Of a stretch of DNA of 64,000 bases, positions 8,879-33,352 are shown in pieces; positions within the stretch are counted from its first letter, which is position 1, and every line of letters starts with the position of its first letter. The notes under the pieces are model-generated. The model made no database searches. It was not told where the DNA came from and saw only the letters and a list, made by a program, of their open reading frames with translations. The stretch is from Caldimonas sp. (GTDB taxonomy: Bacteria > Pseudomonadota > Gammaproteobacteria > Burkholderiales > Burkholderiaceae_C), in assembly GCA_965246805.1 (NCBI GenBank), contig CBDFFO010000010.1, forward strand, positions 181,409-245,408, written 5' to 3'. The translations under genes were made by a program, and so were the position numbers.

Positions 8879-10597
<1,719 letters not shown>

Positions 10598-20701: not shown

Positions 20702-20771
20702 TCACGCACGAACGCACGGCGATGGCCAGCCGCGCCCGCACCTCGACGCGCTCGCGTAAACTCCGCCTCCT

Positions 20772-21145: not shown

Positions 21146-21176
21146 GACTAGGTTCCGAACGGGAGCGCAAGTGACC

Positions 21177-21212
21177 AAGGCCCTAAGCAAATCAACGGCT
21201 TAGGGCCTTTTT
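21177..21212 (+). terminator. Rho-independent terminator downstream of ssrA
   Basis: AAGGCCCTAAGC-N9-GCTTAGGGCCTT followed by TTT. Confidence 0.85.
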
Positions 21213-21227
21213 CACGTCCACATGCGA

Positions 21228-21317
21228 CCGGGTAACAGCGCTTGCATCTTGCTGCGGACCGGGTAACATACCGGGTAACTCATCTCATGCGGCCTTAGGC
21301 GGCAGAAAGTTACCCGG
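21228..21317. repeat. Left-end integrase arm-type repeats CCGGGTAAC
   Basis: Direct copies at 21228, 21259 and 21271; inverted copy GTTACCCGG at 21309-21317. Confidence 0.75.
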
Positions 21318-22615
21318 TGGCAGCGACAGACATCTTGAGCGACAAGGCAGTCAAGGCGGCGCTGAAAGCGGCCGTCGTGGGTGGCAAGACGCGCAAGATC
21401 AGCGACGGCGGCGGCCTCTATCTGGAAACCCGCCCGACCGGCGCGGGCTGGTGGCGCCTTCGGTACTGGATCGACAGCCGCGAGGGGATGCTCAGCCTGG
21501 GCACCTACCCGGCGGTCACGCTCGCCGAGGCCCGCGAGCGCCGTGACGAGGCGAAGCGCCTGATCGCCTCGGGCGTCAACCCGAGCGACGCACGGAAAGA
21601 CGACAAGGCTCGCCGCGATCACCAGCGCAAGACTTTCGCGATGGCCGAGGCAGGCTTGGCCGTCACCGGCTCATTCGAACAGGTCGCCCGCGATTGGCTC
21701 ACGACAGTTCATGAGTCGAAGGTGAGCGCGGGACATGCCGAGCGCACCCGGATCCGCTTGGAGCAAGACGTTTTCCCGTGGCTCGGCAAGCGACCCATCA
21801 ACGAGATCGAGGCGCCGGAGCTGCTGGCCTGCCTTCGCCGTGTAGAAGCTCGCGGCGCCATCGAGACTGCCCACCGCATCAAGGACGCCTGCGGCCAGGT
21901 GTTCCGCTACGGCATCGCGACTGGTGCGTGCCAGAGAAACCCCGCCGCCGACCTACGCGATGCGCTCCGCCCGGTGGAGACACGGCACCTCGCTGCGATC
22001 GTCGAGCCGGTGAAGGCGGGCGCATTGCTGCGCGACATGGTCGGCTACGAGGGCCACCCTGTAACGCGCGTGGCGCTGGCGCTGTCGGCGCTGCTGCTGC
22101 TGCGCCCGGGAGAGCTGCGGAACATGGAGTGGGCTTGGGTGAACTTCGACTCATCGACCCTGACCGTCCCTGCGGAGGTCATGAAGCGTTCGAAGGCCGA
22201 CAAGGCCGGCGGCCCGCCGCACCTCGTGCCCCTCGCACCGCAGGCCGTGGCGCTGCTGCGCGATCTCCAGCCGCTAACCGGGCATGGCCGGTACGTCTTC
22301 CCGTCGCTGCTCACCGGCGAGCGCTGCATGAGCGAGAACACGGTGAGGAGTGCTCTGCGCCGCATGGGTTACAGCAACGACGACATGACCGCACATGGCT
22401 TCCGCGCAATGGCCCGCACCATGATCGCGGAACGATTGAACGTGGGGCCTGAAGTCATCGAGGCGCAGCTAGCGCACACGGTATCTGACTCGCTTGGCCG
22501 GGCCTACAACCGCACGCAGTACCTCGACCAACGCCGCGAAATGATGTCGACCTGGGCTGACTATCTCGACCGCCTACGCGCTGGCGCGCAAGTGGTGCCG
22601 CTCATGGTCGCCTGA
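21317..22615 (+). CDS. int: P4-like tyrosine integrase with arm-DNA-binding domain
   Basis: N-terminal DGGGLYL...W.LRY...LSLGTYP.VTLAEAR; catalytic R (LLRPGE), HGFR, QLAH, AYN. Confidence 0.95.
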   Translation: MAATDILSDKAVKAALKAAVVGGKTRKISDGGGLYLETRPTGAGWWRLRYWIDSREGMLSLGTYPAVTLAEARERRDEAKRLIASGVNPSDARKDDKARRDHQRKTFAMAEAGLAVTGSFEQVARDWLTTVHESKVSAGHAERTRIRLEQDVFPWLGKRPINEIEAPELLACLRRVEARGAIETAHRIKDACGQVFRYGIATGACQRNPAADLRDALRPVETRHLAAIVEPVKAGALLRDMVGYEGHPVTRVALALSALLLLRPGELRNMEWAWVNFDSSTLTVPAEVMKRSKADKAGGPPHLVPLAPQAVALLRDLQPLTGHGRYVFPSLLTGERCMSENTVRSALRRMGYSNDDMTAHGFRAMARTMIAERLNVGPEVIEAQLAHTVSDSLGRAYNRTQYLDQRREMMSTWADYLDRLRAGAQVVPLMVA

Positions 22616-22716
22616 AGAACCCGCGCTGCCCGGTAGGCAGCAAGTCGGCCGAGCCAGGTGCAGTAACACCTGACCCGACCTAACCACAACGTGCAAACCT
22701 GAAAGGACCGCACACC

Positions 22717-22908
22717 ATGGCTACTTCTCACTTTAACTGCTGGGCCACCGTGCCCGGAGGCGCGATCAAGCGCTTGGATGTTTATGCGTGCTGCCAGCGC
22801 GACGCACTGCGGCTGGCTTTCGATGCCGTGCCAGGGGCGGTCTGCATGAGCTGTCGTGAAACCGAAGTCGATGCATTCGTGGGTCAACCTTCGAGGAGCG
22901 GCAAATGA
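22717..22908 (+). CDS. Small hypothetical protein (63 aa)
   Basis: Possible RBS (AGGA) upstream; stop overlaps the next start (ATGA). Confidence 0.5.
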   Translation: MATSHFNCWATVPGGAIKRLDVYACCQRDALRLAFDAVPGAVCMSCRETEVDAFVGQPSRSGK

Positions 22909-23231
22909 CTGCAACAACCAACGCGACTACGAAGAACTCTTTTGAAGTCGACATCGACAGTTGCTACTTGATCCGATCCGAGGCCGACATCGACAAGGCG
23001 CCGGCTTTGATCATCAATCCCGAAGCGTCCGACCTGCGGCTGATATCTGCTGCCATGCGTCGCGCAGACGGCATCCAGAAGATGCTCGACGCGTGGTCGC
23101 GGATGGAGGATGGGAACGTTCAAGTGCGCGAGGTGACATGTGTTCTGGAGCCGATCGCACAGGAGGTGATGCTTCTGTTGGACGCCGCCACCGATCGCAT
23201 GTTCAAGAAGGCTCAAGAGGCGAAGGCATGA
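22905..23231 (+). CDS. Hypothetical protein (108 aa)
   Basis: ATGA overlaps on both sides; plausible helical protein. Confidence 0.6.
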   Translation: MTATTNATTKNSFEVDIDSCYLIRSEADIDKAPALIINPEASDLRLISAAMRRADGIQKMLDAWSRMEDGNVQVREVTCVLEPIAQEVMLLLDAATDRMFKKAQEAKA

Positions 23232-23578
23232 GCGCCGTCATCGAGTACCCGGAAGGCACGGTGGCCGTCCTTTCGACCACACCGGTGAGCGGTATCCGCA
23301 TGTTGAGCGGCCGGACCTGCACCTACCCCCCTGCGATCGATGCCCGCGACCTCGTCGAGGTTGACTTTGACGTGCGCGGCGCGGGAACGGGGGGCGGCCT
23401 GTATCTGGTCGAGGTTCAAGGAGCCAAAGCAGGCATATGCCGGAGGTTCATCACCACCCCTCACGGCCTCGAAGTCGACCGTACGGGCAATGGCGATTGG
23501 CAGTTCATAGATCTCGACGCGGTGGGCTGGCGAATCGTCGGCTTGGTGCGGCAGGTCTACAAGCCTGCCGGCACGTAA
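23228..23578 (+). CDS. Stand-alone S24/CI C-terminal-like domain protein with no HTH
   Basis: Pattern AIDARDLVEVDF...GGLYLVEV...ICRRF...WRIVGLVRQV resembles the phage-repressor/LexA C-terminal domain. Confidence 0.55.
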   Translation: MSAVIEYPEGTVAVLSTTPVSGIRMLSGRTCTYPPAIDARDLVEVDFDVRGAGTGGGLYLVEVQGAKAGICRRFITTPHGLEVDRTGNGDWQFIDLDAVGWRIVGLVRQVYKPAGT

Positions 23579-23588
23579 CGCATCGTTT

Positions 23589-24377
23589 ATGAGCAGTCCA
23601 TCAAAGGCTCGCTGTGAGCTTTACGACATGGCTGGCTTCGCGCATAGATGCGTTGTCGATGCGGAAGTCACCTACGGTCAAAACGCCCTAAGAACAATTG
23701 CCTTCCCCACAGCGTTTACCCGGCCGTTCTCGCTTGCCGACCTTGTTGACGGAGCTGCCCCGTTCGAGAGCGGCGAGCGCCTAAACGGCACTCGCTCGGA
23801 GCGTTTTTTACAGCTGTACAAGTGGTTGCGTCAGTTCCCTGGTTACCAGGCCATAAGCGACCGGGCTTCGATTACATCGGCGTTGGGGTCGTTCCGAAGG
23901 GTTCAGCAAAAGCGTCGCGACGATCCCAAGTTCAGCGATGGGGCGGCTGATTTCCGTTTTTGGCGGTGCGCGGCTTTGGCTGTAGCAGCCGCCGATTTGA
24001 AATACATACGGCCACCAAATGCTGACCAGAGGAGGAAGGCGGTCAAGGCAATCGACGTATTGCTCAAGGTTGATTTGGAAGCAGCCGCTTTTGATGTTCT
24101 AGAGTCGGCAGGCGATGAAGATCGGCTCATCGCTCTCCTTCGAACTCTCAGAGGCTCACTGACATCAGTTGAACGACGGGATCGTTCGGACGACTTCAGT
24201 TCCGGTCGAGAGTTCGTCTTCAACCTCGCTTCGGTTTTAGATGACGCTTTCGGCTATGTCTCGCAAGCGATGGTGTGGCAGCTAGCCTCTCTGCACGATC
24301 GCATTCCAGATCAGAGCACGGTCGAAGACATCGTCAAGCGCATGAACCGGATGCATCGTTCTCGCAAAGAGGTCTAG
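23589..24377 (+). CDS. Hypothetical protein (262 aa), visibly lower GC
   Basis: Long ORF filling the gap before alpA; no recognisable motif. Confidence 0.65.
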   Translation: MSSPSKARCELYDMAGFAHRCVVDAEVTYGQNALRTIAFPTAFTRPFSLADLVDGAAPFESGERLNGTRSERFLQLYKWLRQFPGYQAISDRASITSALGSFRRVQQKRRDDPKFSDGAADFRFWRCAALAVAAADLKYIRPPNADQRRKAVKAIDVLLKVDLEAAAFDVLESAGDEDRLIALLRTLRGSLTSVERRDRSDDFSSGREFVFNLASVLDDAFGYVSQAMVWQLASLHDRIPDQSTVEDIVKRMNRMHRSRKEV

Positions 24378-24510
24378 CGGTAGCGGGGGGAGAAGCCGGG
24401 CGTAATTCGCGTGCGTTTGCCCCCCCGGTGAAAAGCATCGTTTATCGGCCGTGAAAGGTGACCCACCAGCGGCCACCCACCGGCCAAAGTCACTTCCATC
24501 GCAACTGCGC

Positions 24511-24849
24511 ATGGAGCCTCAAGTGAACCCAAGACGAGAACAGAACCCGGTCGTTCGGCCGGTGCCGACCCAGCTAGCAGACGTTGCGCTGCTCGACATC
24601 AACGACCTGCGAGCCGCGGTCAGGATGTCCGCAAGCTGGGTGCTGGAGGAAGTTCGGTCGGGTCGATTCCCGGCACCGGTGATTCGGCAGTCACGCTGCA
24701 CACGGTGGCGCGCCTCGGATGTCCGCGATTACCTGATCAAACGTGCGCAGACCGTCGACATAGCTGCGGCCGAGACGGTGACCGCTCGGGCGAAGAAGGC
24801 CAGCGCAGCGGCGCAGGTCAAGCGTGTCGCGGCAGCGGCCGAGCAGTGA
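24511..24849 (+). CDS. alpA: AlpA-family transcriptional regulator / excisionase
   Basis: DINDLRAAVRMSASWVLEEVRSGRFPAPV...RWRASDV. Start uncertain (24451 or 24511). Confidence 0.8.
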   Translation: MEPQVNPRREQNPVVRPVPTQLADVALLDINDLRAAVRMSASWVLEEVRSGRFPAPVIRQSRCTRWRASDVRDYLIKRAQTVDIAAAETVTARAKKASAAAQVKRVAAAAEQ

Positions 24850-24858
24850 AGGGGGCGA

Positions 24859-25030
24859 CATGCACCCCCAACTTCACGCCCGTCGGGCGGGCTCTATCAC
24901 GCCCCATAAAGACGAAAGGCCAGCCGTTTGCACCGGTGGCCCTTCGAGATTTCAACCAAAGACAAGTTCGAATTCTGGCCTTCAAGGCACCATCCGGCAA
25001 GTCTCCCTGCTGATAGGTGGTGCGGCATGA
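24859..25030 (+). CDS. Small phage-type hypothetical protein
   Basis: ORF ends ...IGGAA* with an ATGA overlap into the next ORF. Confidence 0.4.
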
Positions 25031-25194
25031 CGCCGGCCAAGCCGGCGGAGGCCTCGAAGCATCTGCATTCACTCCTGTTCGCACCCTGCACCTGTCGCTT
25101 GTCCGGTGGCGCCTTGTGCTTGGTGTGTCTGCGGTGGAGGCGGCACTATGGCCGCGTGCAGGTTCGCCGCCAGCTCTGGAGCATTGCCCGATGA
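25027..25194 (+). CDS. Small Cys-rich protein (CTC...CLVC), 55 aa
   Basis: ATGA overlaps at both ends; four Cys in a CxC/CxxC arrangement. Confidence 0.5.
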   Translation: MTPAKPAEASKHLHSLLFAPCTCRLSGGALCLVCLRWRRHYGRVQVRRQLWSIAR

Positions 25195-25622
25195 GCGGCG
25201 CAATCGATTTGCTGCTGTCAAGGCTGCCCGACCACAAGCCCACCGGCCGAGATCGCTGGCGTAGCGGATGCCCTGTCTGCGGCGGAAGCAGCAAGTCCGC
25301 GCTATCGATCGGCATCGGGGACACCGGAGCGGTCCTGGTCACTTGCTTCAAAGGGGGCTGCGGTCCGGACGAGATCGCGGGAGCGGTTGGACTTGTGATC
25401 GAGGATCTATTCCCGCCTCGTGAGGCCGCTGGTCGACCATTGGCCCGTCGCCGAATGATCAGCGACAGACAGGCGCTCGATCTGATGCACGAGGAATCCA
25501 ACTTGGTCTTCGTCGCCGCCGCCAACATCGGCAACGGTATCGAGCTCACCGATGTTGACCGTGCGCGCCTGCTGCAGGCCGCTGCGCGGATCGCTTACTT
25601 GCGCGAAGAGGTCATGTCTTGA
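25191..25622 (+). CDS. Primase-type zinc-binding domain protein
   Basis: WRSGCPVCGG...LSIG...VLVTCFKGGCG, typical of primase Zn-finger N-termini in satellites. Confidence 0.75.
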   Translation: MSGAIDLLLSRLPDHKPTGRDRWRSGCPVCGGSSKSALSIGIGDTGAVLVTCFKGGCGPDEIAGAVGLVIEDLFPPREAAGRPLARRRMISDRQALDLMHEESNLVFVAAANIGNGIELTDVDRARLLQAAARIAYLREEVMS

Positions 25623-26914
25623 GCCGCTACGCAAATGGTTCTGGCGCCGCTGCCGTTGATGGCGCGATCAAGGTCCGTGGTGGTGCGGCTCCGGTAGTTG
25701 CGCGACACCAAGGGGAGCCCACTGGGGAAGCGATCGCCGTTCGGCTGGTTCGAGGCGACACAGTGACGCTGGAGCCCGTGCGCTGGTTATGGCCGGGCTT
25801 CCTGCCCGCGGCCATGCTGACGATCTTGGGCGGCGCTCCGGGCTGTGGCAAGACCACCATCGCGCTGTCGCTCGCGGCCACCGTCAGCAGCGCCGGCACC
25901 TGGCCCGGTGGTGTGACTCGCGCAACGGCGGGCGACGTGCTCATCTGGAGCGGCGAGGATGCGCACCCGGTACTCGCCGCCCGTCTAGCAGCTATGGGCG
26001 CCGACATGAAGCGCGTTCATTTCATCGACGGCATTTCCGGCAGCGAGGGCGAGGCGTTCGACCCCGGCCGAGATATGCCCCTTCTTGAAGCGGCGGCTGT
26101 GCGGCTCGTGGCGCCACGGCTGCTGATCCTGGACCCCATCGTGTCGGCGGTCTCAGGCGACTCGCACAAAGGCGCCGAGGTGCGCAGATCGCTCCAGCCA
26201 GTGGTGGCCCTCGCCCAGCGGCTCGGGTGCGCCGTGGTGGGCGTTACGCACTTCAGCAAGGGCACAGCGGGCCGTGATCCAGCGGAACGCATCACCGGAA
26301 GCATCGCGTTCGCCGCCCTTGCGCGGCTGGTGCTCGTGGCCGCCAAGGTGCAAGCCGATGAGGGCGGAGAGCCGAAGCGCGTGCTGGTGCGGGCGAAGTC
26401 CAACATCGGGCCGGACGACGGCGGGTTCGCCTATTCGCTCGATCGGGTGATAGTGGCTCCCGAAGTCGAAGGGCAGCGAGTTCTGTGGCTGGAGGCGCTG
26501 GAGGGTTCGGCGCGTGATGTGCTCGCCGAAGCGGAAGCCAATCCCGAGGGCAACGAGGAATCGTCTGCGCTGGACGAGGCGATCGAGTTTCTCGAGTCCG
26601 AGCTGGCGTATGGGGCGAAGCCGGTGATGGAGATTTACCGGGAGGCGCGGAGGTCTGGGCACAGTGATCGAACTCTCAAGCGAGCCAAATTGCAGCTCAG
26701 CGTCGCATCACTCAAGGAAAAAGCGGGCTGGGTGTGGCATCTGCCGTCCAAGGGTGCCAAGGGTGCCAACAGTGCCAAGGAAACCAGGCATGAAGCACAC
26801 GGCCCCCTTGCCGAAAACTTCAAGGGTGCCAGCGAATCACCCCTTGGAACACTTGGCCCCCTTGGCCCCCTTGGCCCCCTTGGCCCCCTTGCCGATGATG
26901 GCGAGGTGTTCTGA
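25619..26914 (+). CDS. AAA_25/RepA-like RecA-fold replicative helicase
   Basis: EPVRWLWPG, Walker A GAPGCGKT, Walker B LLILDP, HFSKG, R..GSIAF..LAR, KSNIG. Confidence 0.88.
   Translation: MSRYANGSGAAAVDGAIKVRGGAAPVVARHQGEPTGEAIAVRLVRGDTVTLEPVRWLWPGFLPAAMLTILGGAPGCGKTTIALSLAATVSSAGTWPGGVTRATAGDVLIWSGEDAHPVLAARLAAMGADMKRVHFIDGISGSEGEAFDPGRDMPLLEAAAVRLVAPRLLILDPIVSAVSGDSHKGAEVRRSLQPVVALAQRLGCAVVGVTHFSKGTAGRDPAERITGSIAFAALARLVLVAAKVQADEGGEPKRVLVRAKSNIGPDDGGFAYSLDRVIVAPEVEGQRVLWLEALEGSARDVLAEAEANPEGNEESSALDEAIEFLESELAYGAKPVMEIYREARRSGHSDRTLKRAKLQLSVASLKEKAGWVWHLPSKGAKGANSAKETRHEAHGPLAENFKGASESPLGTLGPLGPLGPLGPLADDGEVF
26748..26893. repeat. Inverted arrays of 9-bp repeats (putative iterons/ori)
   Basis: About 4 copies of CCAAGGGTG on + (26748-26780) facing 6 copies of CCCCTTGGC (26840-26893; reverse complement GCCAAGGGG). 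Confidence 0.7.
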
Positions 26915-27387
26915 TGGGAGCGCCGGACCTGTTGACGTACCTACGCGATGCGGGGTTTGCGGTCGCGCTGGTCGGCGGAGGAATTCGAGTGGCGCCGGCC
27001 GCCGCACTGACCGACACCGATCGAGAGGCGATCAAGGCACACCGTGGTGAACTGCTGGCCCTGCTGGCGCCCGTCCGAAAGGAACCCATTGCGCTTTCAG
27101 AACCCTGGACGGACAGCGACGCCGCGAAATTTGTCGACCGACGCGACCGGCTGACCCGATGGGGGTGGCCGCTTGCCCAATCTGAGGCAATCGCTGATCG
27201 TCTTGTACGTCGCGATCAGGAAGGTGATGACCGCCGGATGTGTGTCGAGTGCAGCCATCTCGGCGAACGTGGGCGATGCCTGGCCGCAGCGGCGGGGCGT
27301 TTGAGCGGCACCGACCGACGACACGAACCCGTGCCCGACATCCTTCAGCGCTGCGAAGGCTTCGGCCTAAGGAAGGGACTCACATGA
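26914..27387 (+). CDS. Hypothetical protein typical of satellite replication modules
   Basis: TGATG coupling to the helicase; DRRMCVECSHL...RC Cys cluster. Confidence 0.65.
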   Translation: MGAPDLLTYLRDAGFAVALVGGGIRVAPAAALTDTDREAIKAHRGELLALLAPVRKEPIALSEPWTDSDAAKFVDRRDRLTRWGWPLAQSEAIADRLVRRDQEGDDRRMCVECSHLGERGRCLAAAAGRLSGTDRRHEPVPDILQRCEGFGLRKGLT

Positions 27388-27399
27388 CGCGACAGCCCC

Positions 27400-27681
27400 A
27401 TGCCTAGCGTCAACCGCCCCCGCATCGACTGGATGCCCGGCAAAGCCGCCCAAGCCGCCTTGCGAACGGCCGAACAGCGACGCCCGGATCTGCGTCAACA
27501 AGCGCTGATCGACTGGATCGTCATCGTCGGCGTGTCCGCGATCGAGCACCATCCCTGGTGTCCCCCCGCTCTGCATGGCCGCAACCGTGACACCTGGATC
27601 GCACGGCCCGCCGCACTCCCGGTAGACAGCTGCGCCACGCATACCGAAAAGCGAAAGGCACCGGGAACGGACACGAGCTGA
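27400..27681 (+). CDS. Hypothetical protein (93 aa)
   Basis: ORF in the same operon direction; no motif recognised. Confidence 0.45.
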   Translation: MPSVNRPRIDWMPGKAAQAALRTAEQRRPDLRQQALIDWIVIVGVSAIEHHPWCPPALHGRNRDTWIARPAALPVDSCATHTEKRKAPGTDTS

Positions 27682-27730
27682 AGGTCGCCCGTCGACATTG
27701 CTCCGCATTCACCCACGTTGCGGAGCGCAT

Positions 27731-27931
27731 ATGCAGACACACGAAGCCGAACCACTGCTCAAGCCCGAGCAGGTCGCGCAACGACTTGCGATCGCGGAGA
27801 GCACTCTGAACGTCTGGCGCTGTACCGGTCGTCAGCAACTTCCCTTCATCAAGCTCGGTTCGAGCGTCCGCTACCGCGCTTCGGACGTGGACGCATTTGT
27901 CGAGAGCCGTTTGCATGACGCCCGCGTCTGA
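27731..27931 (+). CDS. HTH_17/MerR-like excisionase-type DNA-binding protein
   Basis: LLKPEQVAQRLAIAESTLNVWR...LPFIKLGSSVRYRASDVDAF. Confidence 0.85.
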   Translation: MQTHEAEPLLKPEQVAQRLAIAESTLNVWRCTGRQQLPFIKLGSSVRYRASDVDAFVESRLHDARV

Positions 27932-28514
27932 GATTGGGCGCTCCGAAGACGGGCGTTCCAAAGTTGAACTCGTGACCGCTGGGGTGGACGTCGCTCCGGT
28001 CCTCTGGGCGTTGCGAGCGAATCCTGGTCTATGGACTCATGCCGAGACCGCCAAAGGTCGGGCCACTCCACGTTACGACGCGATCTGGGTCCGCTCCGCT
28101 GCCATGGGTTCGGATATCGGGACGCCAACAGAATCGAACTGGTACCCCACGGCTGACGCGGTGCCCCTGCGCGAACTGGTCTACCCCCTGATGGGCCTTG
28201 TCGGGGGCGTCCTGTTGGGGGGCGTCGTGATCCACAAGGTTCCTGCCCACACGACGACCAAGCCCCACATCGCAACAGGTCAGCAGGGCCGCTGCTTTGA
28301 CACGTTCGCGATCCAGATCGATTGCGCGCCCGGCCAGCTTCTCTGCTACGAGGACAGGCGACAGGAATCAAAGCCCGGTGACGCGTACTACTTCAACGAC
28401 TCGTATCGGCACTGGATAGAAAACCCGACGCCGTTTGACCGCATCACGGCGCTGGTCTCGATCCGGACCGAGCGCAAGGCCAACGCCGGACGACCGGCTC
28501 CGGTTTGTCACTGA
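27915..28514 (+). CDS. Aspartyl/asparaginyl beta-hydroxylase-like (2OG-Fe cupin) phage-type protein
   Basis: GVDVAPVLWAL, DAIWVR, LGGVVI.KVP...KPH, FAIQI, PGDAYYFN...HWIEN...DRIT. Confidence 0.7.
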   Translation: MTPASEIGRSEDGRSKVELVTAGVDVAPVLWALRANPGLWTHAETAKGRATPRYDAIWVRSAAMGSDIGTPTESNWYPTADAVPLRELVYPLMGLVGGVLLGGVVIHKVPAHTTTKPHIATGQQGRCFDTFAIQIDCAPGQLLCYEDRRQESKPGDAYYFNDSYRHWIENPTPFDRITALVSIRTERKANAGRPAPVCH

Positions 28515-28951
28515 TGAACATCGTGATCCACGAGAGCTTCGCCAAGCTCACGGGCATGAAGGCGACTCGGTTCGAGCGGCGCGAAAAGATCGCCCACGCT
28601 GAAACCGAGGCCAGAGCGCTGGCGGTGATGTTTCCCTTCGAGGAAACCGCCGAGCACCACTTCGCACCTGGCTTGTACGCACGCTCGCTCTTCATGCCAG
28701 CTGGCTCGACCGTCGTCGGGAAGATCCATCGGCACGCGCACATCTATGTCGTGTCGGGCCATTGCTGGATCTACAACGAGATCGACGAGCACGAGGTGAA
28801 AGGCTTTGAAGTTCGCACCGCCGTACCTGGCGAGAAGCGCTTCTGGCATGTGCTTGCTGACACATTCATCGTGGGCTTCCATCCCACGACCGAGACCGAT
28901 CTGGAAAAGATCGAAAACGACGTGATCGCTAAGACTTACGAGGTGATGTAA
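28514..28951 (+). CDS. Phage-type cupin-fold protein
   Basis: HHFAPGLYARSLFMPAGSTVVGKIHRHAH, a motif that I recall precedes ejection genes in podoviruses; TGATG coupling. Confidence 0.7.
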   Translation: MNIVIHESFAKLTGMKATRFERREKIAHAETEARALAVMFPFEETAEHHFAPGLYARSLFMPAGSTVVGKIHRHAHIYVVSGHCWIYNEIDEHEVKGFEVRTAVPGEKRFWHVLADTFIVGFHPTTETDLEKIENDVIAKTYEVM

Positions 28952-30115
28952 ATGTGGGTTGCCGTAGGAGTAGGGGCTGCCAGCACGGTGGCCGGCATGA
29001 TTGGCGCCAGCAAGGCCGCCAAAGGTCAACAGCAGGCCGCCAATCAGGCCATCGCGGCCCAGCAGGCCCAGTACCAGCAGAACCGCACCGACAACCTACC
29101 CGCGCTCGATGCCCGCAACAACTCACTGATGATGTTGCAGCAGAAGGCCGGCCAGTACAGCGCAGCCCCGACCGCCGACCAAGTGATGGCGACCCCGGGT
29201 TACCAGTTCGGGCTGAACCAGGGCAACAACAACATCGAGAACAGCGCCGCATCCCGAGGCGGCCTGTACTCGGGTGCGGCCGGCAAAGCACTGACCCGCT
29301 ATGGCACTGACTACGCAACGACGAAGTATCAGAACGCCTTCGACAACCTTCAGACCTCGCAGACCAACGACTTCAACCACTATCTGAACATCGGCAACCT
29401 GGGCCAAGCCGGCGCTAGCAGCATCGCCAACGCTGGCCAGAACATGGTCAACGCGAACAATCAGACCTTGATGAGCAATGCGAACTCTCAAGGCGCCGCC
29501 AACATCGCCCAGAGCAACCTCATTGCTGGCGGGCTGAACCAGTTCGGGAGCTGGGCCAAGTCCCCCAACGGGCAAGACGCACTTGGTGGTCTCGGCGATC
29601 GCATCGGCGGGTGGTTCGCACCTTCCAACAGCAACGGCAGCGTGATCTCCAACTCGCCGACCTACATCGACCCCAGTAGCAAGTACGCGCAGAACGGATC
29701 GGACTTCGGCTGGAATCCGATCAAGCGTGCCGATGGTGGACCCGTGCGAGCTGAGCCAGTAGTCGGATCGCGGTCCCCTGTCCGGACGGGTGGAGGCGGT
29801 GGCTTCTCCCCCAATGCCCTGCTCGCGCTGGTGATGGCTCATCAGCTCCCGCAAACTCAAACAGCACCAGGCGGCGACTACCTCATGAACCCCGGTCAGA
29901 TCGTTGATCAGCGGATGCGGCAGGCCGGTGCATACGCCATGGGCGGCGCAGTGCATGGCCCTGGCGGTCCTCGGGACGACCTCATCCCGGCGCAGTTGTC
30001 ATCGGGCGAACACGTTTTCGATACCGCGTCGGTCGACGCCGTCGGTGGTGGCGACAACGAGGTCGGGCAGAACAGGCTGAACAAGCTTCGCGAGATCCTC
30101 AAAAACCGCCGCTGA
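28952..30115 (+). CDS. Podovirus-type DNA ejection/pilot (P22 gp7-like DNA transfer) protein with C-terminal extension
   Basis: Hydrophobic Gly/Ala N-terminus, Gln/Asn-rich body, PGYQFGLNQG...SAASRGGLYSGAAGKAL.RYG.DYA, C-terminal GGAVHGPGGPRDD.IPA.LS.GE.V. Confidence 0.7.
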   Translation: MWVAVGVGAASTVAGMIGASKAAKGQQQAANQAIAAQQAQYQQNRTDNLPALDARNNSLMMLQQKAGQYSAAPTADQVMATPGYQFGLNQGNNNIENSAASRGGLYSGAAGKALTRYGTDYATTKYQNAFDNLQTSQTNDFNHYLNIGNLGQAGASSIANAGQNMVNANNQTLMSNANSQGAANIAQSNLIAGGLNQFGSWAKSPNGQDALGGLGDRIGGWFAPSNSNGSVISNSPTYIDPSSKYAQNGSDFGWNPIKRADGGPVRAEPVVGSRSPVRTGGGGGFSPNALLALVMAHQLPQTQTAPGGDYLMNPGQIVDQRMRQAGAYAMGGAVHGPGGPRDDLIPAQLSSGEHVFDTASVDAVGGGDNEVGQNRLNKLREILKNRR

Positions 30116-30117
30116 AC

Positions 30118-30291
30118 ATGCCGACGATCGAAACGAGGCTCGCCAGGCTGGAGGCGCCGCACATCCAAACCGGGCCGGTGTTGATCATGGTGAGCGACGA
30201 ACGCACTCCAGAGCAGGAGCAGGAGATCAGGTCCGCCCGGGAAGCAGGTAGACCGATCGTCTTCGTGACGGCCATCGATTGGGATCTGTGA
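30118..30291 (+). CDS. Microprotein 1 (57 aa, MPTIETRLARLE...)
   Basis: Translated by hand (below the ORF-track cutoff); starts 2 nt after the previous stop. Confidence 0.6.
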   Translation: MPTIETRLARLEAPHIQTGPVLIMVSDERTPEQEQEIRSAREAGRPIVFVTAIDWDL

Positions 30292-30360
30292 GTCCCGGCA
30301 TGCAGCCTCCCACGGTGCAATGAGTTATCAGGTCGCCCTGATCGAGCAGATGAGGAACAG

Positions 30361-30777
30361 ATGAAAGAAGCCGGTCGGTTTCAGCCAGGCCAGAGTGGCA
30401 ATCCCAAAGGGCGACCACCGGGCGCCGGTCAGCTGGGCACCTTGCGCGCGTCGATCGTGGCACACGTCCCCGAGATCGTGGCCAGGCTGGTTGACGCTGC
30501 GAAGGCCGGTGATGTTGGCGCTGCACGCCTGCTCCTAGAGCGCGTGTTGCCCGCTGTGAAGCCGATCGAGCAGGAAGTCGTGATCGCGTTGCCTACGGGC
30601 TCCCTGACCGATCAAGGTCGAGCCGTGCTCGCCGCCGCTGGCGCTGGCGAACTGGCAACGGGACAAGCCGCCCAGCTGCTGACCGGCCTGAGTTCGCTCG
30701 CCAAGCTGGTGGAGACGGACGAACTGGCAGCACGCATCAAGGCACTGGAGACCCGCGATGGCAACGTTAAGAGCTAG
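30361..30777 (+). CDS. DUF5681-type terminase-small-subunit-like protein
   Basis: GRFQPGQSGNPKGRP motif, AARLLLERVLP; RBS GAGGA upstream. Confidence 0.75.
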   Translation: MKEAGRFQPGQSGNPKGRPPGAGQLGTLRASIVAHVPEIVARLVDAAKAGDVGAARLLLERVLPAVKPIEQEVVIALPTGSLTDQGRAVLAAAGAGELATGQAAQLLTGLSSLAKLVETDELAARIKALETRDGNVKS

Positions 30778-30934
30778 GCTCGAAGAGCTGGAGCAGCAGC
30801 GCGTGTACGGTGACGTGCGGGACATGCCGACACACGAACTCGAACGACTCCTCGTGCTGCACTATGGGTACCTACCGGATGTGAGCGAGTTGCAGCGAAT
30901 CGTCGAGCAGGACAGAGCAAATGGCGACGCTTGA
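30758..30934 (+). CDS. Microprotein 2 (58 aa, MATLRARLEELE...)
   Basis: Translated by hand; overlaps both neighbouring genes. Confidence 0.55.
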   Translation: MATLRARLEELEQQRVYGDVRDMPTHELERLLVLHYGYLPDVSELQRIVEQDRANGDA

Positions 30935-31166
30935 CAAGCGGCTTCAGGAGCTGGAAAAGGCAACCTCGCCAGCCGTGCGGTTCACCATGATCGTTTGCAA
31001 GATCATCGACGTGGGGCGACTGGGCGAGGAGGGAACCCGGTGTGCCTTCGGCGACCGGGAATGGCGACGGGCTCATGACGAGTCTGAAGAGCAGTTCCTT
31101 GGCCGCGTGCAAGCGCAGATCGAATCGCCGAACCGCTTGCCGCGGGTCTTGCTTTACTCAAGCTGA
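30921..31166 (+). CDS. Microprotein 3 (81 aa, MATLDKRLQELE...)
   Basis: ORF track; N-terminus resembles those of microproteins 1 and 2. Confidence 0.6.
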   Translation: MATLDKRLQELEKATSPAVRFTMIVCKIIDVGRLGEEGTRCAFGDREWRRAHDESEEQFLGRVQAQIESPNRLPRVLLYSS

Positions 31167-31199
31167 AATGAGTGCCTGGCGGGTTCTTGCCGGATGCGC

Positions 31200-31818
31200 C
31201 TACTTTGTGATCAAACCTGTTTTTGGAAATTCCATAGGCCCAGTTTTCGGGTCGAAGATGCCGTAAGTGACTACCTTTGCTTTCTCGAACTGGTAGAAGG
31301 TGTTGTACTTGTCGAAGCTCAAGATTTTCTGCAGCCCGTCTTGCGTTGTCGAGACGTGCGATGGCTCACCAAGAACCTGGATTACGTACCCAATTTCCAT
31401 GTCCTTTTTAAAGTCCTGCAAATAGGGGTGAACCGTTTCTTCGTCGAGCGCCATATATTCGACGTACCTGACGTTGTCCCCTCTAAACCGAACAACGATG
31501 AAGGACTTGGTGTCGGCAGACCTATAGATCCATTCGTCCTTGTTATCTTCCGGAATTATCGACGGTTCGCCTTTGGCAAACCTCACGTCAGACCGGCTCG
31601 CGTGGAGCGGAACGTCGAAGAAAGTGATCTGAGGTCTGGGCCGCCCAGCGTACTGGACATACCCCCAAGTGCCAAGGCCTCCGAAAGCCGCGACTAAGAG
31701 CAGCGCGAGGATCATCCTTGCCAAGTCGGCTCCAGTTCCAACGATCCTTGGTCACCGCATACAGCATCACGATGGCCAAGACGACCGATGACATGAAGAT
31801 TCCAGAGCCTATGGTCAT
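31200..31818 (-). pseudogene. Membrane-anchored hypothetical protein split by a frameshift near 31722
   Basis: Frame A MTIGSGIFMSSVVLAIVMLYAVTKDRWNWSR continues naturally into frame B (L)ARMILALLLVAAFGGLGTWGYVQY...; one extra base at the junction. Confidence 0.6.
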
Positions 31819-31950
31819 TTGGGGATCCCGTTCACGATGGGCGAGCTACCTGTGCGCACGAATATCCGTTCGCCCCATACGTCGCGTTTGTGATTCAGAT
31901 GGCCGCCGACAACTCGCTCTTCCCCACTGCGCGTCGTCGTGCAGGGATCA

Positions 31951-32478
31951 CTAAGAAAACCTCTTAAACAACAGACACCCTAAGACAAAGACTACGGGGG
32001 ACAGCAATAGGGCGACGCGAACTAAGTTGATCGCCAAAGCCTTTTTCGCGATCCAGTCACTGCTGTCCTTCAGGCGGTCTGTAATGTTGAGTATTTCGCC
32101 ATAGCGCACTTCGTCGATTGACCGGTGCGGTTCATCTAGAAGGTTTGCAGCCTCTTGGTATGGCGCCGGGTACTCGCGAATGAAGAATGTCTTCCAGACC
32201 AGTAGTAGTCCGAGCAACACAAAGTACCCGCAGAGAACGATCGTGCCGAACAACAGCGTGTCTAGCGTGCGTTCAAGCCCAGGCAATATGTAGACGAACG
32301 TGCCTCCCATACCGGCCAAAACATAGGTCAACGTGGTTTGAGCTTCTTTGCCCATGTTGTCTGCCGTGGTGAACTTCTCCTGCAGGTTCTTGAGGCCGTT
32401 CTCTTCCGCCCACTTGAGTCTGTCCGGCCAGCTCTCATGCCGAGTCCTCACGGTTCGATAGCTTGTCCGCTGTGCCAT
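31951..32478 (-). CDS. 3-TM membrane protein, lower GC (candidate defence effector)
   Basis: Three hydrophobic segments; ADNMGKEAQTTLTY before TM1; acidic loop before TM3. Confidence 0.7.
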   Translation of the reverse strand: MAQRTSYRTVRTRHESWPDRLKWAEENGLKNLQEKFTTADNMGKEAQTTLTYVLAGMGGTFVYILPGLERTLDTLLFGTIVLCGYFVLLGLLLVWKTFFIREYPAPYQEAANLLDEPHRSIDEVRYGEILNITDRLKDSSDWIAKKALAINLVRVALLLSPVVFVLGCLLFKRFS

Positions 32479-32483
32479 AGCTG

Positions 32484-32612
32484 CTAAGCCTTTTTGATTG
32501 CCTTCTTCGTCTTCCCAGGTTGCTTGGGTCTGTAGACCCCTTCGGTCGACTTCTTTGCCGGTGCCTTTCTGGCCACCGACTTCTTGGCTGGCGCTTTCTT
32601 TGCGGGTGCCAT
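32484..32612 (-). CDS. 42-aa Lys-rich histone-H1-like microprotein (MAPAKKAPAKKSVARKAPAKK...)
   Basis: Translated by hand; AAGGAAG RBS upstream; stop lies 5 nt before the 3-TM gene start. Confidence 0.6.
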   Translation of the reverse strand: MAPAKKAPAKKSVARKAPAKKSTEGVYRPKQPGKTKKAIKKA

Positions 32613-32801
32613 CTAGGTCTTCCTTGTCGGAGTTTCGTGCTTCACTGTCCGCGCGGGCTGCCGCGGGCGAAAAGGCGCCGGAGGCGGGGATGATGGAGGG
32701 GTGGGGGCGGTCGCGGCACTGTGCATCTGTGTTCCTTTTAAGGCGTGGCTGATGTCATGCGCGCAAATACATCCACATGCGCACATCATGCAGAGAGACG
32801 A

Positions 32802-32819
32802 TACTGTATAAACGTCCAG
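32802..32819 (+). promoter_or_regulatory. Putative LexA (SOS) box
   Basis: TACTGTATAAACGTCCAG = CTG-N10-CAG with the canonical TACTGTATA half-site, directly before GTG 32820. Confidence 0.65.
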
Positions 32820-33263
32820 GTGGACTTCTTGGTTACGCGAGTTTTCGACGGAGGCAGGGTGATGCCCGGCCACATCCGGAATGCCACGACCGTACGCGGC
32901 CGACTGTCGGTCGCCCAGGAGGAAGATGCGCTGCGGCGCCGGACCGTCCTCGTGGCTCGCTTCACCCCGGCCAAAGGGAACGGAACGTTAATGCAGAGGC
33001 TGCCCCCGCTTTACGACGTGCAGTTGATCTCGCTGAATGGTGAGGTGATGACGCTCGCCGGATATGAGCGTGTCGTGGCTGGAGTGCTGCAGCAGGACTA
33101 CGTGCTCGGGCAGAGCTGGATCGTCACGCCCGGCCCCATTGAAGACCTGATGCACGCCGAGGCGCAGTGGCGCGATGCAGCTGAAAAGATCGTCGAGCTT
33201 CAAGCACAATTGCAGACAGGAGAGGCGGCCCGAACTGGTTCACGCGTCGAGCCGCTTGGGTAA
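32820..33263 (+). CDS. Hypothetical protein, putatively SOS-regulated
   Basis: VDFLVTRVFDGG...LPPLYDVQLI...LAGYER...QSWIV; start inferred at GTG 32820. Confidence 0.6.
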   Translation: MDFLVTRVFDGGRVMPGHIRNATTVRGRLSVAQEEDALRRRTVLVARFTPAKGNGTLMQRLPPLYDVQLISLNGEVMTLAGYERVVAGVLQQDYVLGQSWIVTPGPIEDLMHAEAQWRDAAEKIVELQAQLQTGEAARTGSRVEPLG

Positions 33264-33276
33264 CTTTCCGGGTAAC
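33256..33276 (+). repeat. Right-end arm-type repeats (TTGGGTAAC, CCGGGTAAC)
   Basis: Two copies with a 12-bp period, the same period as the left pair at 21259/21271. Confidence 0.75.
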
Positions 33277-33338
33277 TGGGAAGGTGGCAAACCAGCAGAG
33301 GTAGCATCCATGCGGGTTTGCGGCCGAACTTCAAGTGA

Positions 33339-33352
33339 CCCCAGCCCACCAG
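33339..33352 (+). repeat. attR: degenerate copy of the ssrA 3' end
   Basis: CCCCAGCCCACCAG versus CCCCAGCTCCACCAG, preceded by a T-loop-like TTCAAGT. Confidence 0.75.

What the first reader, a model, noticed from the sequence alone, without database searches (positions are those of the whole stretch)
31951..32612. Low-GC cargo operon: 42-aa histone-H1-like peptide coupled to a 3-TM protein, a candidate anti-phage system
Seen: an unannotated 42-aa ORF (32484-32612, AAGGAAG RBS, PAKK repeats, about one third Lys) ends 5 nt before a 175-aa 3-TM gene. Both are antisense to the satellite backbone and visibly more AT-rich than the host. Established: satellites carry defence hotspots, and small multi-TM proteins are common abortive-infection effectors; the AD..K..TL-TM-TM-loop-TM layout recalls Pycsar-type effectors. 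Inference: this is a two-component defence or toxin-antitoxin module in which the basic peptide acts as nucleic-acid sensor or antitoxin. No cyclase is present, so it is not a canonical Pycsar/CBASS.
Basis: partly seen in the sequence, partly recalled or inferred. Interest (0 to 1): 0.68.

Follow-up and report, generated by a model that had tools for sequence, protein, structure and literature searches.

The report
Three-gene mobile membrane-protein cassette
The lysine-rich mini-gene and the membrane-protein gene are real and belong to a conserved, undescribed three-gene cassette, which has a second, proline-rich mini-gene and travels on phage satellites, transposons and integrons, so it is a good candidate for a new anti-phage or toxin-antitoxin-like system, though its function is untested.

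Summary
A 42-aa ORF with 31% Lys (32484-32612, -) ends 5 nt before a 175-aa helical membrane-protein gene (31951-32478, -). Both lie in low-GC cargo, about 600 nt from the attR end of a 12.2-kb integrase/primase island at the tmRNA gene.

A 37-aa Pro-rich ORF (32613-32726, -) has its stop codon directly next to the ATG of the Lys-rich ORF.

Of 23 distinct related loci, 20 have the Lys-rich partner, 16 also have the Pro-rich ORF, and one has the two fused. Both peptides carry the same short motif, [FY]RPxQPxxTxK. Synonymous codons vary freely at its invariant residues. When the motif changes, it changes in both peptides of a locus, which suggests one co-evolving partner, probably the membrane protein.

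In two loci the trio is exactly one integron cassette. Elsewhere it is Tn7-like cargo or sits beside Shedu, HEPN/AbiU2, type I R-M, nSTAND3 and TA genes.

The membrane protein belongs to an unannotated family of about 400 clusters. It has no Pfam, NCBIfam or PDB match, and only weak PycTM/2TM similarity. It is not Pycsar or CBASS.

Best reading: a peptide-regulated membrane effector for defence, exclusion or addiction. The function is inferred, not shown.

The parts
32613..32726 (-). smORF-A: a 37-aa Pro-rich microprotein, MHSAATAPTPPSSPPPAPFRPRQPARTVKHETPTRKT. It has 10 Pro and pI 12, and carries the motif FRPRQPARTVK. An AAGGA ribosome-binding site lies at 32737-32733. The stop TAG (32615-32613) directly abuts the ATG of smORF-B.
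   Evidence: Sequence. Homologous Pro-rich ORFs with the same motif occur upstream of B in 16 loci. Invariant R, P, Q, P and T are encoded by varied synonymous codons.
It has 13 Lys and pI 11, and carries the motif YRPKQPGKTKK. Its AAGGAAG ribosome-binding site (32625-32619) lies inside the last codons of smORF-A.
   Evidence: A B-like partner is present in 20 of 23 distinct loci. No Pfam, PHROG or PADLOC hit.
31951..32478 (-). 175-aa all-helical membrane protein. A cytoplasmic N-terminal helix runs into TM1 (about 49-69). TM2 is about 74-98. A conserved extended loop FPxPYQEPxNL (99-120) follows. A second stalk helix (121-150) runs into TM3 (about 152-174, kinked at the invariant S160-P161). 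Predicted topology is N-terminus in, C-terminus out.
   Evidence: AlphaFold2 mean pLDDT 91.7. Hydropathy and charge distribution give 16 K+R inside and 3 outside. There are 58 close homologues and 397 clusters in the profile search. No Pfam, NCBIfam, PDB or BFVD match.
21132..33352 (.). Host element: a 12.2-kb integrative island at the tmRNA gene. attL is CCCCAGCTCCACCAG (21132-21146) and attR is CCCCAGCCCACCAG (33339-33352). GGGTAAC arm-type repeats occur only at 21230-21315 and 33258-33276. The island carries an integrase (21317-22615), a primase and AAA_25 helicase (25017-26914), a DNA-ejection/tape-measure-like protein (28952-30115) and a DUF5681 protein (30361-30777).
31200..31724 (-). 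A neighbouring low-GC cargo ORF (174 aa, N-terminal membrane anchor, weak BamE-like hit), downstream on the same strand. It is not conserved with the trio in any other locus, so it is probably separate cargo.
   Evidence: It is absent next to the trio in L001-L033.

Best explanation
This is a self-contained, horizontally mobile three-gene operon: smORF-A (Pro-rich), smORF-B (Lys-rich) and a small helical inner-membrane protein. The membrane protein is the effector. The two intrinsically disordered microproteins are its cytoplasmic regulators.

**Proposed mechanism**
- Both peptides carry the same short linear motif ([FY]RPxQPxxTxK here). They probably dock through it onto one site on the cytoplasmic two-helix stalk of the membrane protein.
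- B adds a polycationic, H1-like tail that can bind nucleic acid or another polyanion. A adds a rigid polyproline tail.
- Loss, titration or displacement of the peptides during phage infection or loss of the element would release or activate the membrane protein. Possible triggers are foreign DNA or RNA binding the Lys tail, host shut-off, or proteolysis of the labile peptides.
- The activated protein would then oligomerise and permeabilise or depolarise the membrane, or block DNA entry. The outcome would be abortive infection, exclusion or post-segregational killing.

**Shown**
- The three ORFs are real, linked and conserved.
- The motif is shared and changes in concert in both peptides of a locus.
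- The trio moves as one unit on mobile elements.
- The membrane protein belongs to a large unannotated family that also occurs in phages.

**Inferred**
- That the peptides bind the membrane protein.
- That the membrane protein is a pore or toxic effector.
- What the trigger is.
- That the module protects against phage.
For: 1. **Tight operon.** The A stop abuts the B start. B ends 5 nt before the membrane gene. Across loci, A-B gaps are -14 to +11 nt and B-membrane gaps are -4 to +43 nt.
2. **Co-occurrence.** Of 23 distinct loci, 20 have B, 16 have A, and one has an A-B fusion. This holds down to 35-40% identity of the membrane protein.
3. **Protein-level selection.** Invariant R, P, Q, P and T of the motif use 4-6 different codons each across loci.
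4. **Concerted motif variants in A and B of the same locus.**
   - RPxQP in 7 loci.
   - YEVxQP in both peptides of L033.
   - F.M.SPxxTxK in both peptides of L028.
   - PQPxxTxK in both peptides of L032.
   - PxVxQPxx[DE]VR in both peptides of L014, L016, L019 and L031.
   - In the window, A and B differ at synonymous sites, so this is not recent gene conversion. A lineage-specific shared partner is the simplest explanation, and the only other gene always present is the membrane protein.
5. **The trio is the mobile unit.** In L014 and L031 it sits alone between two attC sites (GCCTAAC...GTTAGGC, 113-129 nt). One attC bottom strand folds at -52.9 kcal/mol, z = -7.5. An attC site also lies on one side of the module in L012 and L016.
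6. **Mobile, defence and toxin-antitoxin (TA) contexts.**
   - The attR end of the satellite-like island in the window.
   - Tn7-like cargo.
   - HEPN_AbiU2 with an integrase.
   - Type I R-M with Fic.
   - nSTAND3.
   - Shedu.
   - PrlF/YhaV.
   - PIN.
   - Mor of a Mu-like phage.
   - A variable hotspot in which L004 and L005 keep the same flanks but carry different cargo.
7. **Topology.** The stalk is cytoplasmic, where the signal-less peptides are.
8. **Family links.** 58 of 137 relatives hit phrog_11870. There are weak hits to PycTM, CBASS 2TM, SAVED-TM and RT-SLATT membrane effectors.
9. **Background.** Integron cassettes of unknown function often encode phage defence, and about a third of those contain TM helices (bioRxiv 10.1101/2024.07.02.601719).
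Against: - There is no experimental or transcript evidence; only metagenomic DNA runs hold the sequence.
- The trio itself gives no PADLOC, Pfam, PHROG or NCBIfam hit.
- No structural neighbour supports a pore.
- Relatives without peptides exist directly after phage tail genes (L018, L027) and in L020. So the membrane protein need not be toxic on its own, and the peptides are dispensable in some lineages.
- The defence-island association is qualitative, based on about 12 informative contexts, and was not tested statistically.
- The PycTM hits are weak and may reflect hydrophobic helices only.
Confidence: 0.4

Rival explanations
1. Addiction (toxin-antitoxin) module whose main role is to stabilise the cassette or island, not to stop phage. 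The membrane protein is the toxin. B, A or both are labile, disordered antitoxins. B's Lys tail might also auto-repress the operon by binding DNA.
For: - It has a compact, coupled operon layout.
- It occurs as a single integron cassette, and cassettes that hold multi-gene units are classically TA pairs (general knowledge).
- Its neighbours are often TA genes.
- The disordered, basic small partners resemble minimal antitoxins.
Against: - Relatives without peptides in prophage tail regions argue that the membrane protein is not intrinsically lethal.
- Two antitoxin-like peptides with one shared motif is unusual.
- No sequence-specific DNA-binding fold is present.
- This reading overlaps the best explanation, because TA modules often double as abortive-infection systems.
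Confidence: 0.22
2. The roles are reversed. The cationic peptides are the active agents: intracellular toxins or a leaderless two-peptide bacteriocin-like pair acting on nucleic acid or the ribosome, as Pro-rich antimicrobial peptides do. The membrane protein is the immunity or sequestering factor that binds their common motif.
For: - Two small cationic peptide genes followed by a small multi-TM gene is the canonical layout of class IIb bacteriocin-immunity operons (general knowledge).
- The shared motif would explain one immunity protein recognising both peptides.
- The [FY]RPxQP motif faintly recalls the PYxPRP cores of Pro-rich antimicrobial peptides (from memory, not tested).
Against: - There is no double-glycine leader or signal peptide.
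- The integron cassette that delimits the unit holds no transporter or processing gene.
- The peptides lack any amphipathic or hydrophobic segment.
- B is 156 aa with a folded insert in L033, and A and B are fused into a 164-aa protein in L007.
- Membrane-protein relatives occur without peptides.
Confidence: 0.1
3. A and B are regulatory upstream ORFs, not functional proteins. Translation through polyproline (dependent on EF-P) and Lys-rich runs, coupled to the downstream start codon, sets expression of the membrane protein.
For: - Stop and start codons abut or overlap.
- Pro runs are extreme, with about 24 consecutive Pro in L004 and 8+8 in L033.
- A's C-terminal RK(K/T) codons double as B's Shine-Dalgarno sequence.
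Against: - The motif is conserved at the amino-acid level while synonymous sites are scrambled.
- The motif lies at the C-terminus of B in one lineage and at the N-terminus in another.
- A and B change their motif in concert within a locus.
- B has a globular insert in L033.
- Pro-run length is not conserved.
- These features fit functional peptides. A regulatory side-effect of the Pro run is still possible.
Confidence: 0.08
4. The membrane protein is a prophage 'moron' that acts constitutively at the envelope, for example in superinfection exclusion or blocking DNA injection. The peptides are accessory adaptors, for example tethering it to the nucleoid or to polyphosphate, rather than switches.
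For: - The family is represented in phages: 58 of 137 members hit phrog_11870.
- It lies directly after tail genes in L018 (Mu GpP-like hub, minor tail Z) and after a Phage_GPD remnant in L027.
- An integron membrane cassette has been reported to interfere with genome injection (Deva; bioRxiv 10.1101/2024.07.02.601719).
Against: - It does not explain why two peptides with one co-evolving motif are kept.
- No similarity was found to any named family in Pfam, NCBIfam, PHROGs or PADLOC, so none to a known exclusion protein.
Confidence: 0.15

Closest known systems
Pycsar PycTM, CBASS 2TM and SLATT-type membrane effectors
   Same: Small helical membrane proteins on defence islands that are thought to permeabilise the membrane. 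13 of 137 family members give weak PADLOC PycTM hits (best E 2e-5). A few hit CBASS 2TM, SAVED-TM or RT-SLATT models.
   Different: - No cyclase, CD-NTase or reverse transcriptase is nearby, and the integron cassette holds only the three ORFs.
- There is no cyclic-nucleotide-binding domain.
- The window protein itself gives no PADLOC hit.
- No Pfam SLATT hit appears in 137 members.
- The partners are two disordered microproteins, not an enzyme.
Lambda RexA/RexB-type and other two-component abortive-infection systems with a membrane channel
   Same: Conceptually, a cytoplasmic sensor that responds to nucleic-acid complexes activates a small multi-TM protein encoded on a prophage (general knowledge).
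   Different: - No sequence or fold similarity was detected.
- The partners here are 37-58 aa disordered peptides with a shared linear motif, not a folded RexA-like protein.
Toxin-antitoxin pairs with membrane toxins and disordered antitoxins (for example PanA-PanT-type pairs)
   Same: Coupled small genes on mobile elements, a membrane-spanning candidate toxin, and disordered, probably labile partners encoded upstream.
   Different: - No PanA or other antitoxin domain is present.
- There are two partner peptides instead of one.
- Toxicity has not been shown.
- Relatives without peptides exist.
Bacterial histone-H1-like Lys/Ala/Pro-repeat proteins (AlgP, Hc1, BpH1-type)
   Same: B's PAKK/AKKA repeats and pI of 11 resemble their DNA- or polyanion-binding tails (the comparison is from general knowledge).
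   Different: - B is only 42 aa and gives no Pfam hit.
- It carries a specific non-repeat motif.
- It is strictly linked to a membrane-protein gene, so it is not a nucleoid housekeeping protein.
Integron-borne phage-resistance cassettes (BRiCs)
   Same: In L014 and L031 the trio is a single attC-bounded cassette. About a third of reported BRiCs contain TM helices and many have no known domain.
   Different: - No match to a described BRiC was established.
- In the window the module sits in a tmRNA-integrated island, not an integron.

Membership tests
Pycsar | An adjacent pyrimidine cyclase (PycC) | tested here: not met
   No cyclase appears among the window neighbours or in any related locus. 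The attC-bounded cassette contains only A, B and the membrane protein.
Pycsar | An effector that carries a cyclic-nucleotide-binding domain fused to TM helices (PycTM) or TIR | tested here: not met
   The 175-aa protein is entirely a helical stalk plus TM segments. It has no Pfam domain and no PADLOC hit. Only 13 of 137 relatives give weak PycTM hits.
CBASS | A CD-NTase plus an effector that senses a cyclic oligonucleotide | tested here: not met
   No CD-NTase or SAVED domain is in the module or cassette. There are four weak hits to '2TM effector' models among 137 relatives.
SLATT domain effectors | A match to the Pfam SLATT_1-6 models | tested here: not met
   No SLATT family appears among the hits of 137 members at E <= 0.01. 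One weak PADLOC RT-SLATT hit at E 0.009. No profile-profile test was possible.
Type II-like toxin-antitoxin | Adjacent co-transcribed small genes | tested here: met
   The genes are tightly spaced or overlapping on one strand in all loci. Transcription itself was not observed.
Type II-like toxin-antitoxin | A toxic product that is neutralised by direct binding of the partner | not testable with these tools
   This needs expression and interaction assays.
Phage holin / lysis cassette | A small TM protein next to an endolysin or spanin, or a match to a holin family | tested here: not met
   No lysozyme or spanin neighbour is present. 1 of 137 members has a marginal Phage_holin_2 hit at E 0.008.
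Class IIb two-peptide bacteriocin with immunity protein | Peptides with a double-glycine leader or amphipathic/hydrophobic mature parts, and a dedicated transporter | tested here: not met
   The peptides are hydrophilic and rich in Pro or Lys, without a leader. No transporter is in the cassette.
Integron gene cassette | Bounded by attC sites with RYYYAAC and GTTRRRY cores and a folded bottom strand | tested here: met
   This is met for the homologous trios in L014 and L031, and attC lies on one side in L012 and L016. The sites read GCCTAAC...GTTAGGC over 113-129 nt. One folds at -52.9 kcal/mol, z = -7.5. It is not met in the window, where no attC was found.
Phage satellite (P4- or PICI-like) as host element | About 10-15 kb, with an integrase and primase-replicase, lacking its own virion genes, with defined att sites | tested here: inconclusive
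   The island is 12.2 kb, has att repeats at the tmRNA gene, an integrase, a primase and an AAA_25 helicase. No capsid, portal or large terminase was seen among the ORFs tested. No hallmark satellite gene (Psu/Sid/Delta, AlpA, capsid-size redirection) was identified, and no helper phage is known.

The most novel reading that the evidence does not exclude
This may be a new kind of minimal immune or addiction switch. Two intrinsically disordered microproteins share one co-evolving linear motif and compete for a single docking site on a small membrane effector. One has a polyproline tail. The other has a polylysine tail that binds nucleic acid or another polyanion. The ratio or availability of the two peptides would then gate membrane permeabilisation. 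Incoming foreign nucleic acid could pull away the Lys-rich peptide, or a translation insult could selectively stall the polyproline ORF. The module is packaged as a cassette of about 1.2 kb that moves between integrons, Tn7-like transposons, prophages and satellites.
Probability: 0.2. Interest if true: 0.85.

Novelty: new variant of a known kind. Interest (0 to 1): 0.68.

Why it matters
If this is confirmed, three things follow.

1. **A new compact system.** It would add a very small (about 1.2 kb) three-gene system to the catalogue of defence or addiction modules. Current detectors miss it: PADLOC, Pfam and NCBIfam all give nothing.
2. **Gene calling.** Two of its three genes are 37-58 aa ORFs. 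Gene callers usually skip them or call them in the wrong frame, as in P0040 and L026.
3. **A natural example of motif co-evolution.** Two disordered microproteins keep one short linear motif that changes in concert with its likely receptor. That makes a tractable model for motif-receptor co-evolution in bacteria.

It would also give a first functional handle on a membrane-protein family of about 400 clusters at 50% identity, found in Betaproteobacteria and their phages (phrog_11870). The module is easy to test, because it is small enough to synthesise and clone with and without each peptide.

Tried and rejected
**Searches that found nothing**
- Pfam, PHROGs and PADLOC on the window's three proteins gave no hit.
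- NCBIfam on 80 relatives gave no family.
- Foldseek of the high-confidence model against the PDB and BFVD found nothing with E <= 0.001.
- A profile search against PDB sequences found nothing.
- tblastn against GenBank phages found nothing with the window protein or with P0095. Plasmids gave one Burkholderia hit, a relative without peptides.
- Three IMG/VR scans found no confirmed locus, and one alignment was too diverse to use.
- The scan of GTDB species representatives found one locus only, a Hydrogenophaga MAG. The close subfamily is therefore rare in sequenced genomes.
- A protein-database search with an alignment of the A peptides found nothing at E <= 10; the query is too short for a database of that size.
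- A literature search for similar systems and for phrog_11870 found nothing relevant.

**Steps that could not be run or gave no information**
- No RNA runs hold the sequence; the two runs that do are metagenomic assemblies and gave no information on expression or an empty site.
- The promoter and terminator scan gave nothing above the shuffle background near the module.
- No conserved non-coding 12-mer lies upstream of A across loci.

**Interpretations rejected**
- Canonical Pycsar or CBASS.
- A holin.
- A housekeeping H1-like nucleoid protein.
- A type I TA system: no Rfam RNA was found in 20000-34500 other than the tmRNA.
- Chance ORFs.
Full report
**1. Observation.** On the minus strand, a 42-aa ORF runs from 32612 to 32484 (MAPAKKAPAKKSVARKAPAKKSTEGVYRPKQPGKTKKAIKKA). 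It is preceded by AAGGAAG (32625-32619) and ends with TAG. Five nt later, the ATG at 32478 opens a 175-aa ORF that ends at 31951. The peptide has 13 Lys in 42 residues and a pI of 11. GC is 0.55 for the peptide gene and 0.53 for the membrane-protein gene. That compares with 0.633 for the island backbone and 0.665-0.675 for the host flanks. GC3 is 0.68, against 0.83-0.85 for the integrase and czcA. The stated facts are therefore correct.

**2. Setting in the window.** A tmRNA gene lies at 20772-21145. It is followed by a P4-type integrase (21317-22615), a primase and AAA_25 helicase (25017-26914), a DNA-ejection/tape-measure-like protein (28952-30115) and a DUF5681 protein (30361-30777), all on the + strand.
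- The tmRNA 3' end, CCCCAGCTCCACCAG (21132-21146), recurs as CCCCAGCCCACCAG at 33339-33352.
- The heptamer GGGTAAC occurs only six times in 64 kb. All six lie just inside the two ends, at 21230-21315 and 33258-33276.
- The module is therefore cargo at the attR end of a 12.2-kb integrative island, and a CzcA-type efflux gene begins at 33645.
- 'Satellite' fits the island's size and its integrase/primase content. No hallmark satellite gene was identified, so I treat the label as plausible rather than shown.

**3. A third gene.** Immediately upstream, in the same orientation, ATG 32726 (AAGGA at 32737-32733) opens a 37-aa Pro-rich ORF, MHSAATAPTPPSSPPPAPFRPRQPARTVKHETPTRKT. Its TAG (32615-32613) abuts the ATG of the Lys-rich ORF. 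I call these A (Pro-rich) and B (Lys-rich).

**4. Conservation of the trio.**
- The membrane protein has 58 close homologues (38-79% identity), all unannotated and nearly all from metagenomes.
- I recovered DNA for 23 distinct loci and read the upstream regions.
- A Lys-rich B partner is present in 20 loci. A Pro-rich A is present in 16. In L007 the two are fused into one 164-aa protein. Three relatives (L018, L020, L027) have neither.
- A-B gaps are -14 to +11 nt, and B-to-membrane-gene gaps are -4 to +43 nt.

**5. The small ORFs encode proteins.** A and B both contain [FY]RPxQPxxTxK. Across loci, the invariant residues are written with many synonymous codons:
- Arg: CGC, AGA, CGT, CGA, AGG, CGG.
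- Pro: all four codons.
- Gln: CAG and CAA.
- Thr: all four codons.

This is the signature of selection on the peptide sequence, not on the RNA.

**6. Concerted motif change.** Each locus keeps one motif flavour in both peptides:

| Loci | Motif in A | Motif in B |
|---|---|---|
| window, L001, L004, L021, L022, L024, L026 | [FY]RPxQP | [FY]RPxQP |
| L033 | PYEVQQP | GYEVKQP |
| L028 | PFSMPSPHHTQK | DFEMDSPTDTVK |
| L032 | PFVPQPVPTRK | DFEIPQPKKTAK |
| L014, L016, L019, L031 (distant lineage) | P[ST]VPQPxR[DE]VR | KxVxxQPxKDxR |

- In the distant lineage, the motif lies at the N-terminus of B and the AKK tail at the C-terminus.
- Within the window, the A and B motifs differ at synonymous sites, so recent gene conversion does not explain the likeness.
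- The simplest reading is that both peptides bind one partner that co-evolves lineage by lineage. The only other constant gene is the membrane protein. This is an inference.

**7. The membrane protein.**
- AlphaFold2 with a 31-sequence alignment gives mean pLDDT 91.7. The model has one long helix at 17-69 (cytoplasmic part plus TM1), a helix at 74-98 (TM2), an extended conserved loop at 99-120 (FPxPYQEPxNL), and a helix at 121-158 continuing to 160-174 (stalk plus TM3, kinked at the invariant S160-P161).
- K+R counts are 9 in the N-terminal region and 7 in the large loop, against 1 and 2 on the other side. This predicts N-terminus in and C-terminus out, with a two-helix cytoplasmic stalk.
- TM1 is only moderately hydrophobic (mean Kyte-Doolittle value 1.44, worked out by hand from the sequence; it does not pass the 1.6 threshold). 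It is Gly-rich and polar-faced (KEAQTTLTY), as pore-lining helices often are. That last point is inference.
- A profile search of 1.84 billion representative proteins finds 397 clusters at E <= 1e-3, and 257 at E <= 1e-10. Nearly all of the 150 best hits listed are 150-230 aa.
- None of 137 sampled members has a consistent Pfam family, and none of 80 has an NCBIfam family. Source names are all 'hypothetical protein', from Achromobacter, Burkholderia cenocepacia and Gallionella.
- 58 of 137 members hit phrog_11870, which has no known function.
- PADLOC gives only weak hits in a minority: PycTM in 13 members (best E 2e-5), CBASS 2TM in 4, SAVED-TM in 1 and RT-SLATT in 1.
- Foldseek (PDB, BFVD) and a PDB profile search find nothing meaningful.

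**8. Relatives without peptides.**
- L018 lies 10 nt after a minor-tail-protein-Z gene, downstream of a Mu GpP-like baseplate hub.
- L027, on a Burkholderia megaplasmid, lies after a Phage_GPD remnant among IS elements and a T6SS Tae4/PAAR pair.
- The wider family is therefore a prophage 'moron'-type gene. The A/B peptides are an add-on in a large sub-lineage.

**9. Mobility and neighbours.**
- In L014 and L031 the trio sits alone between two attC sites (GCCTAAC...113-129 nt...GTTAGGC). The same attC lies on one side of the module in L012 and L016.
- One attC bottom strand folds at -52.9 kcal/mol, z = -7.5.
- A + B + membrane protein is therefore a single integron cassette of about 1.17 kb. 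That delimits the functional unit independently of gene calling.
- Elsewhere the trio has these neighbours:
  - Tn7-like cargo, with TnsA/TnsB/TniB/TniQ and S8 and trypsin-like peptidases.
  - HEPN_AbiU2, an integrase and H-NS.
  - Type I R-M and Fic.
  - nSTAND3.
  - Shedu SduA_C.
  - PrlF/YhaV.
  - PIN.
  - IS66.
  - Mor of a Mu-like phage.
- L004 and L005 share flanks but differ in neighbouring cargo, which is hotspot behaviour.
- As background, a recent preprint reports that at least a third of mobile-integron cassettes of unknown function confer phage resistance, and that about a third of those contain TM helices (bioRxiv 10.1101/2024.07.02.601719).

**10. Mechanism.** I commit to a peptide-regulated membrane effector. 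A and B dock through their shared motif onto the cytoplasmic stalk. B's H1-like tail senses or binds a polyanion, and A's polyproline tail acts as a non-binding competitor or spacer. Removing or displacing the peptides switches the membrane protein to an oligomeric, membrane-damaging or entry-blocking state.
- The steps that are shown are the linkage of the genes, selection on the coding sequence, motif sharing and concerted change, mobility as a unit, topology, and the mobile and defence-rich contexts.
- Everything about binding, toxicity, trigger and phage protection is inferred.
- One side observation is only a lead. The membrane protein's own conserved loop, FPSPYQEP, resembles the peptide motif (P-x-Q-x-P against P-x-Q-P). 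The peptides might mimic and displace that loop.

**11. Rivals.**
- A pure addiction module.
- Reversed roles: toxic or bacteriocin-like peptides with a membrane immunity protein.
- Regulatory upstream ORFs that exploit polyproline stalling. L004 has about 24 consecutive Pro.
- A constitutive exclusion protein with adaptor peptides.

The upstream-ORF reading is weakened by points 5 and 6. It is also weakened by the 156-aa B with a folded insert in L033. The bacteriocin reading is weakened by the lack of a leader, a transporter or hydrophobic segments, and by the three-gene cassette limit.

**12. Comparison with known systems.**
- It is not Pycsar or CBASS: there is no cyclase and no nucleotide-binding domain.
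- It is not a Pfam SLATT protein, not a holin, and not a class IIb bacteriocin operon.
- In concept it works most like a toxin-antitoxin or abortive-infection pair with a membrane effector (RexAB-like or PanT-like). The regulator architecture appears to be undescribed.

**13. Verdict.**
- The module is real, conserved, mobile and unannotated, and its function is unproven.
- I rate it a new variant of a known kind, with interest 0.68.

Noticed in passing
window 21132-21146, 33339-33352, 21230-21315, 33258-33276: The island has clear ends. The tmRNA 3' end is duplicated at 33339-33352 (14 of 15 bases). GGGTAAC heptamers occur only at the two island ends in the whole 64 kb, and are probably integrase arm-type sites.
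   Followed up: partly
window 22961-24377: A second lower-GC patch (0.584) lies right after the integrase. It holds two ORFs (205 and 262 aa) with no Pfam, PHROG or PADLOC hit. It may be a second cargo or hotspot position in the island.
   Followed up: partly
window 31200-31818 (-): A low-GC (0.51) ORF of 174 aa lies downstream of the trio. It has an N-terminal membrane anchor and a weak BamE-like hit (E 0.002). A 76-aa ORF with a TM-like N-terminus overlaps it in another frame (31588-31818). It is not linked to the trio in other loci.
   Followed up: partly
window 26840-26895: A 9-nt tandem repeat (CCCCTTGGC, about 5 copies) lies at the 3' end of the AAA_25 helicase ORF. It would encode a short PLG repeat.
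   Followed up: no
window 21052-21654: ARAGORN's second call, 'tmRNA*', overlaps the real tmRNA and the integrase start. Rfam does not support it, so it looks spurious.
   Followed up: partly
L014 3474-7060; L031 904-3004; L016 887-1015; L012 1-55: These are chromosomal-integron-like arrays of near-identical 126-129-nt attC sites (GCCTAAC...GTTAGGC). The neighbouring cassettes in L014 encode unknown proteins. One of them (3543-4061) has an RNGLVH motif that looks like the HEPN Rx4H motif by eye, but Pfam gave no hit.
   Followed up: partly
L011 122-180; L005 about 9830-9990: B is disrupted in two loci. In L011 an in-frame TAG replaces the invariant Gln codon of the motif. In L005 B is frameshifted relative to L004. 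These are either pseudogenisation or assembly errors; L005 has other split genes.
   Followed up: no
L004 9676-9828; L033 335-502: The A peptides contain extreme polyproline runs, about 24 consecutive Pro in L004 and 8+8 in L033. These should depend strongly on EF-P, so translation stalling may play a regulatory part.
   Followed up: no
window 32166-32198 (membrane-protein residues 94-104) and family consensus FPxPYQEPxNL: The membrane protein's own conserved extended loop resembles the peptides' P-x-Q-P motif. The peptides might mimic an intramolecular segment.
   Followed up: no
P0068 (454 aa) and P0204 (394 aa): Two family members carry N-terminal fusions. P0068 has an unknown domain of about 240 aa. 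P0204 has a MobA-like NTP transferase domain. These could be sensor fusions or gene-call artefacts.
   Followed up: partly
L022 11419-14432; L027 2109-3761: S8-family peptidase genes lie within a few kb of the membrane-protein gene in two unrelated loci. In L022 a trypsin-like peptidase gene is next to the S8 gene. This may be coincidence or a recurring neighbour.
   Followed up: no
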